From assembly GCA_963820525.1 (NCBI GenBank), contig CAWGAA010000001.1, positions 2,368,001 through 2,432,000 of the forward strand: a stretch of 64,000 bases of DNA. The letters are read 5' to 3'. Below, piece after piece: positions 19,085-23,638 of the stretch. Under the pieces are notes generated by a model. It had not been told where the DNA came from. It saw nothing but the letters and a program-made list of their open reading frames with translations, and searched no databases. A program made the translations under genes and the position numbers. This DNA is from an uncultured Spirochaetota bacterium. Its GTDB lineage: Bacteria; Spirochaetota; Spirochaetia; SZUA-6; Fen-1364. Positions within the stretch are counted from its first letter, which is position 1, and every line of letters starts with the position of its first letter.

Positions 19085-19717
19085 ATGCCAGTCAAGCACC
19101 CGTTTCTTCTGTATCTCCGCTCCCGGCTGAACCTCTGGGTCTCTGCGGCCGCCGCGGGCCTCATCATCGCCGCGGCGGTCTTCCTGGGCTCCTGGCTCCT
19201 TGCGGCGGCCATCCTCGTCCTTTTCGCGTACCTCGTCGCCACCTTCCTCCTGTTCTTCTCGCACAGGGGCGCCCGGGAAGTCGTCGAGGAAAGCGAGCAG
19301 GACAGAATGAAGAAGGTTCGGGAGAAAATCGACTATTACGCTCGAATGCGGGAACAAATCGCAGTTCTGCGCGTTGGAGACGAGGCCATGAGAAAGAGCC
19401 TGGAGTACTTTCTCCTCGAATCCGGCGCGTACATAGAGAAATGCCGCCAGGCCGGACTCTATTCCCCCCGGGCGAACAAGAGGATCGAGGACGCGCTGGA
19501 GATCTGCCAGGCTTTTCTCGGGGAGCTGGACGAGAGCTCCACGGAAAAACGCTACGGCGTGCGGGATGGGGAGAGCTTCGAGGAGTTCGCAAAGAGGTCA
19601 GTGGATGCGGTGATGGCGGCCGGCTCGGACATCAAGGAGTGGACCACCGAGGACCTCATCGGCCTGAGCGCCCAGGACAGGCTGTCCATCATCGAGGAGC
19701 TGGAAGGGAAAAAATGA
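19085..19717 (+). CDS. Hypothetical membrane protein (two N-terminal TM helices and a charged helical domain)
   Basis: Hydrophobic residues about 16-60 followed by an E/K/R-rich helical region; stop overlaps the next start (ATGA). Confidence 0.75.
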   Translation: MPVKHPFLLYLRSRLNLWVSAAAAGLIIAAAVFLGSWLLAAAILVLFAYLVATFLLFFSHRGAREVVEESEQDRMKKVREKIDYYARMREQIAVLRVGDEAMRKSLEYFLLESGAYIEKCRQAGLYSPRANKRIEDALEICQAFLGELDESSTEKRYGVRDGESFEEFAKRSVDAVMAAGSDIKEWTTEDLIGLSAQDRLSIIEELEGKK

Positions 19718-21339
19718 GCAGAAGGTTTGCCCCGGTTGTTCTCGCGTTCTGTCTGGCGGCGAGCGCCGCATTCGGCCTGGACGTCCGGCTCAACTCCGCG
19801 GAGATGGACGTCGTGGTGCGTCCGGACGGCAAAGCCGCCGTATTCGAGAGCCTCGACTGGATGGCTTCCGGCGGTCAGATGCACGGGTTCTACTTCCAGG
19901 GGGCGGCCGCCCCGCCCGTCTTCAACCTGGACCAGTGCCACGCCGACCTGGCGGGGGGGACGCGCGTCGGCCTCCAGATCTCGGACCTGGGCTCCGGCAA
20001 ATACGACGTCGTGCTGGCGGGCGGCCGCGGATTCAGCGGCTCCGCCATGTACTTCCTCAACTACGGCCAGGACCTGGCGAGGACAAAGCTCATCGGCACC
20101 ACCGAGTCGAGCCAGCTGGGAAAGCTCTTCTACTTCGACTGGGCGCCGGAGGAGTGGGAGTATCCAATGGACCACAGGACGGTCCGGGTTGTCCTCCCCA
20201 TCAAGACGGGAAGCGATGTCGGCCAGGCTCTCATCGACAAGATCGACCTTCGCACCGAGCCGTACGTCAACCAGGAGAACAAGATCGACTACTTCGGCAG
20301 CAAGGGAAGCGACGGCTCGTACTATCTCACCATCCGATTCCACCAGCAGAGCGTCGCCCCGAGGCAGAGCCAGCGGATCCAGTTCTACATCAAGGCGGAT
20401 CAGGTGCCCATGACGGTCTCCCTGACGGAGAGCACGCAGGTCCCGCAGGCGGGTGCTCCTTCCGGAAGCCAGGGCGAGACACAGCCGTCAGAGATGTACC
20501 CCGAGCGGACGCGGCTCCTCCCGAACCCCCTCATCTCCGCCCCCTTCCTGGGAGCCCTCATTGTCCTCGAGATCGTTCTCTACCTCCTGAAGGTGAGAGG
20601 ATTCGCAAAGACCGTGGAAAAGGTGGAGAGCATCCGCTGGGCGGGCGACAACTGGATTCCGCCCAAGCTCTACGTCGGCACGTATCAAGTGAAGGGCAAG
20701 ATCGTCAAGGACCTCCACCCCATCGAGGCCGCGCTGCTGTTGGAGCTGCCCCTCGCCCGGGTGGTGGCGATTATGCTTGAAGGCCTCAAGCGTCAGGGCA
20801 TCATCGAGGTGGTCACGGAGGACCCCCTCCAGATCAGGATCCTCACGGCCCGCAAGGCCGAGCACGAGTACGAGGAGCTTTTCCTCCAGGCCTTCGACAC
20901 CAAGGGCAATGTTCTCTCGGGGCTCCTCTCCGACTTCTTCGAGAAGGTGCTGGCCAGGCTCCAGGAAAAGATCTGGGACTGCGACATCGAGGCGACGAAG
21001 GACTTCTATAGAAAGAAGCTCGAGCAGAGGGAGGAAACTGAAGCGGACCGCCTGGAGCCGCACTACTGGTACTGGACCTCCTACCGCTACATCTACTGGA
21101 ACGCGGCCGTCTACCCCCACATCCACCTGCCGGCCGAGTTCTCCTCCGGCTACCAGCAGTTCATGGCATCGGCCTCCTGCTTCAAGGGATGCTTCGCTCC
21201 GGCGCAGGCAATGACGGGCGGAGTCGGCGCCTGCTATTCAGCGTGCCATAACGCCTGCCACTCCGCCTGCCATTCAGCCTGCCATTCGGCCTGCCACTCC
21301 GCCTGTCATTCAGCCTGCGTCTCCGGGGGGGCGCACTGA
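19714..21339 (+). CDS. DUF2207-like single-pass membrane protein with a C-terminal (A-C-H-S)n Cys/His repeat; putative radical SAM target
   Basis: Signal peptide [21 protein letters not shown], extracytoplasmic domain (V.V.PDG.A.V.E; W..P.....V.V.LP), one TM, DL.P.EAALLL/G.IEV/YE..FL..F region, tail [36 protein letters not shown]. Confidence 0.8.
   Translation: [541 protein letters not shown]
21229..21324 (+). repeat. Eight 12-bp coding units encoding A-C-x-x
   Basis: GCCTGCTATTCA GCGTGCCATAAC GCCTGCCACTCC GCCTGCCATTCA GCCTGCCATTCG GCCTGCCACTCC GCCTGTCATTCA GCCTGCGTCTCC. Confidence 0.97.
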
Positions 21340-22721: not shown

Positions 22722-23638
22722 AGAAAATGCTGCTCGCCTACACGATCCCCAAGGTCCCGCTTACCGTCCGCCTCCTTCTCTTCGCCGCATTCGCGGCGGC
22801 GGGAGCAGCGGTCCAGCTCCTCCTGGGCGACTTCGGCGTCTTTCTGGGCGCCATCCTGATGGTACCGGGGCTCATCTTCGTCTGGGCAAAGGGCTATCGG
22901 AACAAGCCGGTTGACCTCGGCTTCCAGGACTGGCAGCCCGTTTCAGCCGCCGAGTTCGGAAGGATCAAGAGCAATCTTGCATTCACGCGAAAGGGGCGCT
23001 ACTCAGTGATCTACAAGCCGGGATTCGGGGTCTTCATCATCATCGCCCTGGGAATCCTCGCGCTCGTGTTCCTCTTTTCGGAGGCCGCCCTGGCCGCCCT
23101 GTTCTCCTTCGACGCGGCCGTGCTCCTCCTCCCCTTCCTCTTCTCCGGCAACGTGAGGCTGTGGACGCCGCAGGAGCTCGCCTTCAAGATGCACGGCTTC
23201 GATACAATCGTCGGATCCGAGCCGACTGAAGGCGGCGACATCATCATCACCCCGTACCTCCGCCTGGACAAGGACAAGGAGGGGAGGAGGATACCTGAGG
23301 ACATCCGCCTCATGGTGGAGCCGCGCAGGAAGCCCGCAGACTTCCTGGGAGTGCAGTTCCAGGTTGCCATCAACAAGGGCCCCAACGGGCCAGTGCCGTA
23401 CATGTACGCCGTATTCCTCTGCAAGGGTAAGGGAGAATCATTCAGTTGGGTCGATTCCCAGCGCTTCTCCGGCATGGAGCAGGAGCCGGGAGGGGACAAG
23501 GAGTACGGCTATGTCGTGGTCCGCCAGAAAACCTCGGGAACGGGCTATCACACGACCGACTCCGACATCAAGAGGCTCTACGGCATCGTCAAGGAAAAGC
23601 TCCTCGCGATGAAAGGCGGCGACAAGGCGGCCAATTAG
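22718..23638 (+). CDS. Hypothetical polytopic membrane protein (about 4 TM plus soluble C-terminal domain)
   Basis: AGGAGG RBS, ATGA overlap with the radical SAM stop, two hydrophobic hairpins. Confidence 0.78.
   Translation: MKKMLLAYTIPKVPLTVRLLLFAAFAAAGAAVQLLLGDFGVFLGAILMVPGLIFVWAKGYRNKPVDLGFQDWQPVSAAEFGRIKSNLAFTRKGRYSVIYKPGFGVFIIIALGILALVFLFSEAALAALFSFDAAVLLLPFLFSGNVRLWTPQELAFKMHGFDTIVGSEPTEGGDIIITPYLRLDKDKEGRRIPEDIRLMVEPRRKPADFLGVQFQVAINKGPNGPVPYMYAVFLCKGKGESFSWVDSQRFSGMEQEPGGDKEYGYVVVRQKTSGTGYHTTDSDIKRLYGIVKEKLLAMKGGDKAAN

What the first reader, a model, noticed from the sequence alone, without database searches (positions are those of the whole stretch)
19085..23638. Candidate undescribed radical SAM system that modifies the Cys/His-repeat tail of a large membrane protein
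Seen in sequence: four co-oriented genes joined by an ATGA overlap (19714), a 2-bp gap (21339/21342) and another ATGA overlap (22718). Gene 2 (541 aa: signal peptide, extracytoplasmic domain, one TM) ends in [36 protein letters not shown]. Gene 3 is a radical SAM/SPASM enzyme. I saw no short precursor peptide, protease or peptide exporter in the operon. Established: SPASM enzymes mature peptides or proteins (sacti/ranthipeptide thioethers, PqqE, anaerobic sulfatase maturases), and Cys-every-fourth repeats are known radical SAM targets, usually on short free precursors. Inference: here the core peptide is fused to the cytoplasmic end of a DUF2207-like membrane protein, so the product would be a crosslinked membrane complex or sensor rather than a secreted RiPP.
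Basis: partly seen in the sequence, partly recalled or inferred. Interest (0 to 1): 0.93.

Follow-up and report, generated by a model that had tools for sequence, protein, structure and literature searches.

The report
Radical-SAM enzyme paired with Cys/His-tailed membrane protein
A wetland spirochaete carries a tightly packed gene set in which a peptide-modifying radical-SAM enzyme always sits next to a large membrane protein ending in an almost unchanging Ala-Cys-His-Ser repeat, so the enzyme very probably modifies that tail, but the chemistry and purpose are untested.

Summary
Four co-oriented genes (19085-23638) are joined by ATGA, 2-bp and ATGA junctions. Gene 2 (541 aa) has a signal peptide, a beta-sandwich outer domain, one TM helix and a cytoplasmic domain, and ends in ACYS-ACHN-(ACHS)5-ACVSGGAH. 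Gene 3 is a radical SAM/SPASM enzyme with an RRE-like N-domain.

- **Tail to enzyme:** of 79 related loci from at least five phyla, 74 of 76 readable gene-2 ends carry the tail. 64 of 64 with room have gene 3 directly downstream, and 59 of 59 have gene 4.
- **Enzyme to tail:** in 401 sampled genomes of the phylum, 28 hold the enzyme and 26 of these hold a tailed partner. This includes a 911-1052-aa sister protein that keeps the tail.
- **Controls:** two tail-less homologue loci show no such enzyme; only one has enough downstream DNA to judge. The CX3 repeat is unique in the 5-Mb genome.
- **Novelty:** no curated family reaches its cut-off and my paper searches found no description.

Best reading (0.6): gene 3 modifies the cytoplasmic tail in place, probably by thioether crosslinks, giving a membrane-anchored product rather than a secreted peptide. 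Chemistry and function are untested. This scan had already noted the same system in another genome (e1-3527621).

The parts
19085..19717 (+). g1: 210-aa protein with an N-terminal hairpin of two TM helices and a cytoplasmic helical domain. It is a lineage-specific accessory of the cassette.
   Evidence: ORF. Orthologues lie directly upstream of g2 in 20 of 21 relatives' loci, and a g1 cluster is present in 57 of 79 wider loci. g1 is absent or replaced in Armatimonadota-, Elusimicrobiota- and Omnitrophota-type loci. No Pfam, NCBIfam or PDB relative was found. The atlas lead to PF10112 was not confirmed by HMM: 0 of 12 members.
19714..21339 (+). g2: 541-aa membrane protein and proposed substrate. 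Signal peptide (res 1-21), periplasmic beta-sandwich (res 23-227), disordered linker, TM helix (res 272-305), cytoplasmic winged-helix plus helical domain (res 330-487) and the Cys/His tail.
   Evidence: ORF. AlphaFold model (mean pLDDT 76.6, both domains about 85-95, tail below 50). Foldseek matches the outer domain to ribophorin I/Ost1 and to the N-domain of M1 aminopeptidases (E 5e-8 to 1e-6). DUF2207_N scores 21.1 bits against a cut-off of 24.4, and 6 of 22 orthologues match at E<=0.05.
21229..21336 (+). Tail of g2 (res 506-541): ACYS ACHN (ACHS)x5 ACVS GGAH, then the stop codon.
   Evidence: The tail is near-invariant in 19 of 19 close relatives and present in 74 of 76 readable homologous loci across phyla. 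Ala, Cys and His columns are invariant in alignment A3 even where the rest of the protein is 35% identical. It is the only such repeat in the genome.
21342..22721 (+). g3: 459-aa radical SAM/SPASM enzyme. N-terminal RRE-like domain (about res 18-100), CX3CX2C at C129/C133/C136 plus an invariant C140, and a seven-Cys SPASM region (C356, C370, C388, C425, C428, C434, C438).
   Evidence: Pfam. Invariant columns. The PDB profile search finds SkfB 2.9e-26, PqqE 5.3e-24, TigE (8VPO) 1.3e-19 with the match starting inside TigE's RRE, CteB 2.9e-17 and SuiB 7.8e-17. PqqD scores 14.5 bits here but 25.4 bits, above the 23.4 cut-off, in the sister enzyme.
22718..23638 (+). g4: 306-aa protein with four TM helices, a conserved cytoplasmic loop (NKPxDxGxExW) and a cytoplasmic alpha/beta C-terminal domain. 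It is a constant partner in the canonical form of the system.
   Evidence: ORF. g4 lies downstream of g3 in 59 of 59 loci with room. Alignment A4. AlphaFold model with pLDDT 86.9 and pTM 0.75. No convincing structural or sequence relative was found.

Best explanation
The cassette encodes a self-contained protein-maturation system.

1. g2 is inserted in the inner membrane with its beta-sandwich domain in the periplasm. Its winged-helix/helical domain and the (Ala-Cys-His-Ser)n tail lie in the cytoplasm.
2. g3, a cytoplasmic radical SAM/SPASM enzyme, holds the C-terminal region of g2 through its RRE-like N-domain.
3. g3 uses the 5'-deoxyadenosyl radical to modify the repeat units one after another.
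4. The most likely chemistry is a thioether between each Cys sulfur and a carbon of a neighbouring residue. This is what the thioether-forming radical SAM/SPASM maturases do: SkfB and CteB, both among g3's profile matches to solved structures, and PapB (recalled, not a call result).
5. The result would be a rigid ladder of small rings studded with His.
6. The modified tail is not cut off or exported. It stays on g2 and works with the cytoplasmic faces of g4 and, in spirochaetes, g1.
7. The end function is probably metal binding or redox activity tied to the cell envelope.

Shown here: gene order, the tail, the domain make-up of g3, and two-way co-occurrence across phyla. Inferred: topology, that the tail is the substrate (my odds 0.7), thioether chemistry (about 0.4), retention on the membrane (about 0.6), and the end function (speculative).
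For: **Linkage from g2.** 64 of 64 tail-bearing loci with at least 1500 nt downstream have g3 immediately after g2, and 59 of 59 have g4. The loci come from Spirochaetota, Planctomycetota, Omnitrophota, Elusimicrobiota and Armatimonadota MAGs. In all, 513 stretches in species-representative genomes encode a relative.

**Linkage from g3.** In 401 sampled genomes of the phylum, 28 have a full-length g3 orthologue (at least 277 bits). The next best radical SAM hit scores 179 bits or less and lacks the N-domain. 26 of the 28 have a g2 match, and no genome has g2 without g3.

**The tail travels with the enzyme.** In 17 of those genomes g2 is replaced by a protein that matches g2 only in pieces; the three read in full (911-1052 aa) end in the ACHS tail. 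It abuts a g3 of 37-40% identity, while g4 is replaced by other genes.

**Tail-less homologues.** In the two loci found, no g3 match appears. One has 1.4 kb downstream and the other only 0.4 kb.

**Substrate-binding domain.** The N-domain of this enzyme family is PqqD/RRE-like: 25.4 bits against a cut-off of 23.4 in the sister enzyme, and the profile match to TigE starts inside its RRE.

**No other candidate.** There is no room for a separate precursor gene, and the CX3 repeat is unique in the genome.

**Selection on the tail.** It is near-invariant while the repeat codons differ synonymously.

**No export or cleavage genes.** No protease or exporter recurs nearby. The commonest other neighbour cluster occurs in 18 of 79 loci.
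Against:
- The tail is modelled with pLDDT below 50.
- The window's own g3 scores only 14.5 bits for PqqD, and only 2 of 22 orthologues match PqqD at E<=0.05.
- One genome (G362) has the sister enzyme next to 2.5 kb of ORF-less DNA with no g2.
- One MAG contig (L045/P0008) reads g2 straight into g3 with the last ~100 residues of g2, tail included, missing. In one locus (L082) g2 is frameshifted.
- Cys/His repeats could bind metal without any modification.
- Adjacent genes in one operon co-occur for many reasons.
- The related loci are mostly MAGs, and relatives are not independent samples.
Confidence: 0.6

Rival explanations
1. The tail is an unmodified metal- or iron-sulfur-binding module, for example a Cu/Zn/Ni store or an electron conduit. 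g3 acts on something else, such as a lipid, a small molecule or another protein. g2 would then serve only as its membrane scaffold or electron partner.
For: Cys and His side by side at fixed spacing are classic metal ligands. The tail is modelled, at low confidence, as one long helix. g3's best single-sequence NCBIfam hits are cofactor enzymes: AhbD 122.7 bits, NirJ2 and AhbC. All parts except the g2 outer domain face the cytoplasm.
Against: g3 carries an RRE-like peptide-binding domain that the AhbD-like hits in the same genomes lack; those matches start at about position 100. No other conserved partner exists across both forms of the system besides the tail. Profile matches to solved structures are led by a peptide maturase (SkfB) and include PqqE, TigE, CteB and SuiB, but also non-peptide enzymes (BlsE, the GDGT/archaeol synthase, MoaA).
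Confidence: 0.2
2. g2 is a giant precursor. After modification the tail is cut off by an unlinked protease and released as a peptide natural product or a cofactor. This would resemble borosin cores on the C-terminus of OphMA, or PQQ and mycofactocin made from invariant peptides.
For: The invariance of the core resembles cofactor precursors more than antibiotics. In the own family a Gly-Gly pair precedes the tail. Core peptides at the C-terminus of a large protein are known in borosins (recalled, not from a call).
Against: No protease, peptidase or transporter recurs in 79 loci. The Gly-Gly is not kept in distant members. A 500-residue, Sec-inserted, single-use leader would be very costly. The conserved outer and cytoplasmic domains of g2 imply a function of their own.
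Confidence: 0.1
3. The cassette is an envelope-based anti-phage system. It would resemble HXS, where radical SAM enzymes mature a repeat-bearing protein effector that blocks phage DNA entry.
For: PMC13128918 (abstract and section 9 read) shows that radical SAM enzymes HxsB/HxsC mature HxsA, a protein with five HxS repeats, for defence. The distribution across distant phyla is patchy.
Against: PADLOC gives only generic viperin-core hits for g3 and nothing for g1, g2 or g4. HxsC4 scores 70.5 bits against a cut-off of 500. The cassette is stably kept in 23 of 24 other genomes of the own family, which is unlike defence islands. Neighbours are CreD, a two-component system and a glycoside hydrolase, not defence genes. 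The tail is cytoplasmic, not periplasmic.
Confidence: 0.07

Closest known systems
Thioether-forming radical SAM/SPASM maturases: SkfB, CteB (SCIFF) and PapB (freyrasin, six CX3D units)
   Same: RRE-like N-domain, radical SAM core and full seven-Cys SPASM region. The substrates are Cys-rich and, in PapB, carry repeated Cys-X3 units. SkfB and CteB are among the best profile matches to solved structures.
   Different: Those substrates are short free peptides with leader, protease and exporter genes. Here the repeat is the C-terminus of a 541-aa membrane protein and no such genes are linked. No NCBIfam model of these families reaches its cut-off; StsB scores 82.9 against 625. The PapB details are recalled, not from a call.
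Cyclopropylglycine synthases TvgB and TigE (PDB 8VPO)
   Same: They are radical SAM/SPASM enzymes with an N-terminal RRE, and TvgB acts on a tandem four-residue repeat (TVGG). TigE is the only solved structure whose match to the g3 profile extends into the N-domain: positions 38-412, E 1.3e-19 (passages of PMC10878394 read).
   Different: They form C-C bonds on Val or Ile in short free precursors. The repeat here is Cys/His-based. Whether g3 has the GYW motif of cyclopropyl synthases was not examined.
NCBIfam CXXX-repeat systems (TIGR04115 maturase, TIGR04117 target) and the ACGX system (TIGR04340)
   Same: A radical SAM/SPASM enzyme sits beside a target with Cys at every fourth residue. The ACGX unit has the same Ala-Cys-x-x form (the unit is recalled; the family name comes).
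   Different: Scores are far below the cut-offs. TIGR04115 has no match at g3 at E<=0.01 (cut-off 350). TIGR04117 scores 9.6 against 50. TIGR04340 scores 87.5 against 400. Those targets are small proteins, not membrane-protein tails.
Radical SAM enzymes that mature whole proteins: HxsB/HxsC on HxsA, QhpD on QhpC, and anaerobic sulfatase maturases
   Same: The product is a functional protein, not a secreted peptide. HxsA carries short tandem repeats and works at the envelope (PMC13128918). anSME is a profile match at 6.6e-14.
   Different: HxsA is processed and exported, and it is modified at one SHRSS site. QhpC and the sulfatases have no repeat (recalled). None is a Sec-inserted membrane protein modified on a cytoplasmic tail.
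DUF2207 membrane proteins, often paired with LemA
   Same: Large outer N-domain, TM segment and an intracellular C-part ending in a low-complexity stretch, with a small membrane protein encoded upstream (PMC10457818 and PMC12631010 passages). The HMM match is weak.
   Different: Ordinary DUF2207 tails are Gly/Ser-rich. Here the tail is an invariant Cys/His repeat with a dedicated radical SAM enzyme. g1 gives no LemA match.

Membership tests
Radical SAM superfamily (PF04055) | HMM above the gathering score, and a CX3CX2C cluster motif | tested here: met
   98.3 bits against 29.5. C129, C133 and C136 are invariant in 22 of 22 sequences.
SPASM domain (PF13186) | HMM above the gathering score, and the seven-Cys pattern including CX2CX5CX3C | tested here: met
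   35.6 bits against 21.5. C356, C370, C388, C425, C428, C434 and C438 are invariant.
RiPP recognition element / PqqD (PF05402) | HMM above the gathering score in the N-terminal domain | tested here: inconclusive
   The window's g3 scores 14.5 bits against 23.4, and 2 of 22 orthologues match at E<=0.05. The sister enzyme scores 25.4 bits, above the cut-off. The profile match to TigE begins inside its RRE.
TIGR04115 CXXX repeat peptide maturase | Score of at least 350 bits | tested here: not met
   The whole-genome search gives no match at g3 at E<=0.01. The best matches elsewhere score 27 bits.
TIGR04117 Cys-Xaa-Xaa-Xaa repeat radical SAM target | Score of at least 50 bits | tested here: not met
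   9.6 bits, E 0.92, on the last 79 residues of g2.
TIGR04340 ACGX-system radical SAM/SPASM protein | Score of at least 400 bits | tested here: not met
   87.5 bits.
Sactipeptide/ranthipeptide maturases | Formation of Cys-S to carbon thioether bonds in the substrate | not testable with these tools
   This needs mass spectrometry or NMR. By sequence alone, StsB (NF045574) scores 82.9 against 625, and SkfB is the best solved relative at E 2.9e-26.
DUF2207 (PF09972, N-terminal domain) | HMM above the gathering score of 24.4 | tested here: inconclusive
   The window's g2 scores 21.1 bits. 6 of 22 orthologues match at E<=0.05, best 9.3e-06. Two database homologues carry a precomputed PF09972 label.
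HXS anti-phage system (HxsABCD) | An HxS-repeat effector, two radical SAM enzymes and HxsD | tested here: not met
   There is only one radical SAM gene. The repeat is A-C-H-S, not H-x-S. HxsC4 scores 70.5 against 500. PADLOC (2023 version, which may predate HXS) gives no specific hit.

The most novel reading that the evidence does not exclude
The g3-modified tail is a protein-derived, membrane-tethered cofactor. It would be a fixed-length ladder of about 8-9 thioether rings with aligned His that binds metal or carries electrons at the inner face of the membrane. That would define a new class of radical-SAM-matured membrane complexes, in which the 'core peptide' never leaves its 500-1000-residue carrier. 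The class is spread over at least five bacterial phyla, and an untested lead points to Asgard archaea.
Probability: 0.25. Interest if true: 0.9.

Novelty: new variant of a known kind. Interest (0 to 1): 0.78.

Why it matters
Radical SAM/SPASM maturases are mostly known for making small secreted peptides or free cofactors. This looks like a widespread, strictly conserved case in which the target is the cytoplasmic tail of a large envelope protein of an uncharacterised superfamily (DUF2207-like).

- 513 species-representative genomes hold a relative of g2.
- If the tail is modified in place, RiPP-type chemistry extends to building permanent parts of membrane complexes.
- It would give the first functional handle on DUF2207-type proteins.
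- It offers a simple, repetitive, invariant substrate for mechanistic enzymology.
- The near-fixed repeat number across phyla suggests a defined structure, such as a metal site or molecular ruler, that is worth solving.

Tried and rejected
- **Expression:** no RNA holder is listed for the stretch. DNA holders are wetland, freshwater-sediment and soil metagenomes. No reads were laid.
- **g4 fold:** Foldseek on the PDB gives nothing at E<=0.001. VIA-wide gives a best Z of 8.0 on a 47-residue helical hairpin. The C-domain's best match is Z 6.2 to the chaperone Spa15, within the stated noise. The profile search against PDB sequences gives nothing meaningful.
- **g1:** the atlas lead to PF10112/XpaC was not confirmed. 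0 of 12 orthologues match at E<=0.1, and the PDB profile search has 0 hits.
- **Second protein search** with alignment A3 returned essentially the same 39 proteins. The only lead is an atlas cluster of g4-like proteins whose commonest labelled phylum is Thorarchaeota.
- **Heme-type CX3CH reading of the tail:** rejected, because the tail is cytoplasmic and this rests on recall only.
- **CreD and the two-component system as part of the unit:** rejected. CreD is adjacent in only 3 of 21 relatives' loci and 1 of 79 wider loci.
- **Promoter/terminator scan:** terminator-like sites are no more frequent than in shuffles, 5 against 5.1.
- **Cytoplasmic domain of g2:** it could not be fold-searched alone because there were no prediction jobs left.
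Full report
**Observation.** The + strand holds four tightly coupled ORFs:
- g1 19085-19717 (210 aa)
- g2 19714-21339 (541 aa from the ATG at 19714)
- g3 21342-22721 (459 aa)
- g4 22718-23638 (306 aa)

g2 ends in ACYS-ACHN-(ACHS)5-ACVS-GGAH, at nt 21229-21336. The eight units use different synonymous codons (75% matches at period 12). 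A six-frame scan of the whole 5.05-Mb genome for four or more consecutive CX3 units followed by Cys finds only this site. GC content is even across the region. Upstream lies a CreD gene (475 bits), with a divergent histidine kinase and response regulator pair. Downstream lies a convergent DUF5060/GH5 gene.

**The proteins.**
- *g3* matches Radical_SAM (98.3 bits) and SPASM (35.6 bits). No NCBIfam model reaches its curated cut-off; the best is AhbD at 122.7 against 500.
  - In an alignment of 22 orthologues from several phyla, the CX3CX2C Cys, a fourth Cys four residues later (C140) and seven SPASM Cys are invariant. A ~110-residue N-domain is conserved.
  - A profile of this alignment finds SkfB (2.9e-26), PqqE (5.3e-24), TigE/8VPO (1.3e-19, match from position 38), CteB (2.9e-17), SuiB (7.8e-17) and anSME among solved structures. 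TigE has an N-terminal RRE at residues 3-85 (PMC10878394, passages read).
  - PqqD scores only 14.5 bits on the window's N-domain. It scores 25.4 bits, above the 23.4 cut-off, on the sister enzyme described below.
- *g2* has a signal peptide.
  - Its AlphaFold model shows a confident beta-sandwich (res 23-227), a disordered linker, one long TM helix (272-305), a confident winged-helix plus helical cytoplasmic domain (330-487) and a low-confidence tail.
  - The outer domain resembles ribophorin I/Ost1 and the N-domain of M1 aminopeptidases. It gives a sub-threshold DUF2207_N match of 21.1 against 24.4; 6 of 22 orthologues match at E<=0.05.
  - The Lys/Arg-rich stretch after the TM helix places the tail in the cytoplasm. 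This is inference.
- *g4* is modelled well (pLDDT 86.9). It has four TM helices and a cytoplasmic alpha/beta domain with no convincing known relative.
- *g1* is a two-TM protein with a helical cytoplasmic domain and no detectable family.

**Conservation near home.** A g3 orthologue (E 3e-84 or better) is present in 23 of 24 other genomes of the same family; the exception is 60% complete. It is also present in 2 of 3 genomes of a second family, and in none of the 13 genomes of the other six families of the order. In four of the own-family genomes (G005, G012, G014, G021) the match is partial or split into pieces. Of 21 loci fetched, 20 show g1-g2-g3-g4 in the same order and one is cut by its contig end. 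The tail is nearly identical in 19 of 19 loci.

**Conservation far from home.** A genome-collection scan with a g2 alignment found 513 stretches encoding a relative. The best 79 loci were kept. By their record titles they come from MAGs labelled Spirochaetota, Planctomycetota, Omnitrophota, Elusimicrobiota, Armatimonadota and Myxococcales.
- 76 of the 79 have a readable g2 C-terminus, and 74 of those 76 carry the tail.
- The two exceptions are a contig where g2 runs into g3 with the tail region missing (L045, also protein P0008) and a frameshifted g2 (L082).
- All 64 tail-bearing loci with at least 1500 nt downstream have g3 directly after g2. My first filter flagged three because the genes overlap; they are adjacent. 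All 59 with at least 2600 nt have g4.
- The Ala, Cys and most His columns of the tail are invariant even where the rest of g2 is about 35% identical.
- g1 is limited to spirochaete-type loci (57 of 79). Other lineages have a different small gene or none upstream.
- No other neighbour recurs widely; the next cluster occurs in 18 of 79 loci.
- A search of 1.84 billion representative proteins gave 626 hits at E<=1e-3 and 152 at E<=1e-30. Most full-length ones end in ACH[S/D] repeats.

**The reverse test.** In 401 genomes sampled across the phylum, the g3 profile separates cleanly.
- 28 genomes have a full-length match of at least 277 bits. Everything else scores 179 bits or less and lacks the N-domain.
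- The g2 profile matches in 26 genomes, all among those 28.
- Of the other two, one contig starts inside the tail (G327). One (G362) has the enzyme beside 2.5 kb of ORF-less AT-rich DNA with no g2.
- In 17 of the 26 the partner is a much larger protein. It matches g2 only in pieces; the three read in full (911-1052 aa) end in ACHS repeats interrupted by ACVHS and finishing ACVSSF.
- Its enzyme is 37-40% identical to g3. g4 is replaced by a 421-441-aa protein and a ~180-aa TM/zinc-ribbon protein.
- So the tail and the enzyme stay together while almost everything else changes.
- Conversely, a tail-less subfamily of g2 homologues from low-GC organisms exists. In the two loci found, no g3 match appears within 1.4 kb and 0.4 kb of downstream DNA. 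This is a small sample.

**Mechanism.** I conclude, with odds of about 0.7, that the tail is the substrate of g3. The supporting points are:
- the RRE-like domain;
- the peptide-maturase relatives of g3;
- the lack of any other candidate substrate;
- the two-way linkage described above.

By analogy with SkfB, CteB and PapB, the most likely change is a series of Cys-to-carbon thioethers. That chemistry is inference (about 0.4). No protease or exporter is linked, and g2's other domains are conserved. The product therefore probably stays on the membrane protein (about 0.6). Its purpose is unknown; metal binding or redox activity at the envelope is my best guess.

**Rivals.**
- An unmodified metal-binding tail, with g3 acting elsewhere (0.2).
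- A released peptide or cofactor (0.1).
- An HXS-like anti-phage role (0.07). PMC13128918 shows radical SAM maturation of a repeat-bearing protein effector. However, PADLOC gives nothing specific, and the cassette is stably inherited within the family.

**Comparison with what is known.** The system works like a RiPP maturase-substrate pair, but it fails the membership tests of the curated CXXX-repeat and ACGX families.
- TIGR04115: no match at g3.
- TIGR04117: 9.6 against 50.
- TIGR04340: 87.5 against 400.

The following paper searches found no description (listings only):
- 'radical SAM'+DUF2207 (0 papers);
- ACGX+'radical SAM' (0);
- 'CXXX repeat'+'radical SAM' (0);
- ranthipeptide+'membrane protein'+SPASM (5 unrelated papers);
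- a six-term query (1 paper, on MNIO enzymes).

DUF2207 itself is uncharacterised (9 papers; passages of PMC10457818 and PMC12631010 read). Subscription journals and supplements were not searched. This scan had already noted the same system in another genome (e1-3527621). My counts agree with it and extend it. Its Asgard claim was not tested here; the only lead is an atlas cluster of g4-like proteins.

**Verdict.** This is a real, widespread, undescribed variant of radical SAM peptide maturation in which the substrate is the tail of a large membrane protein. The linkage is shown. The chemistry and biology are open.

Noticed in passing
window 15157-19042: A CreD inner-membrane protein gene (17594-19042, PF06123 at 475 bits) ends 43 bp before g1. 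An OmpR-type response regulator (16756-17466, - strand) and a HAMP histidine kinase (15157-16752, - strand) are transcribed divergently. CreD adjacency is seen in only 3 of 21 relatives' loci and 1 of 79 wider loci, so it is probably local context.
   Followed up: partly
L045:613-3354 (protein P0008, 937 aa): In one MAG contig g2 (residues 26-437) reads straight into g3 with no stop. The last ~100 residues of g2, including the tail, are missing. This is either a real deletion/fusion or a collapse of the repeat during assembly.
   Followed up: partly
protein P0054 (540 aa, representative library): A protein joins the g2 outer domain, TM helix and start of the cytoplasmic part to the C-terminal domain of g4 (48% identity over 128 residues). 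It has no tail and no g3 in between. It may be a natural deletion or a chimeric assembly.
   Followed up: partly
L112-L114, L118 (genomes G350, G338, G263, G413): In the sister form of the system, a 911-1052-aa tailed protein and its radical SAM enzyme are followed by a 421-441-aa protein and a ~180-aa membrane protein with a C-terminal zinc ribbon, instead of g4. Neither has a clear Pfam family.
   Followed up: partly
L115:1-4000 (genome G362): The sister enzyme stands next to 2.5 kb of AT-rich (37% GC) DNA with stops in all frames and no g2-like sequence. This may be a decayed or replaced partner gene.
   Followed up: partly
L119:3535-5037, L120:6001-7506: Tail-less homologues of g2 (about 500 aa, 38% GC contigs) end in a different conserved C-terminus. 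They have no radical SAM gene in the downstream DNA available. A 98-aa membrane protein is encoded just upstream.
   Followed up: partly
L083:4664-5053, L093:6548-6937, L099:5584-5973, L102:6543-6932: In Armatimonadota-type loci, g1 is replaced by a conserved 129-aa soluble protein of no known family, and its stop overlaps or abuts the g2 start. Elusimicrobiota-type loci have a 185-aa multi-TM protein there instead.
   Followed up: no
window 21756-21850 (g3 residues about 139-170): Directly after the CX3CX2C motif, g3 has an invariant extra Cys (C140, motif YAxC). It is followed by a variable insertion that is Gly/Cys-rich in this genome and up to ~50 residues long in others. This is unusual for SPASM enzymes, and its role is unknown.
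   Followed up: no
window 23723-25612 (- strand): A convergent gene for a 629-aa DUF5060 plus GH5 cellulase-family protein ends 85 bp after g4.
   Followed up: no
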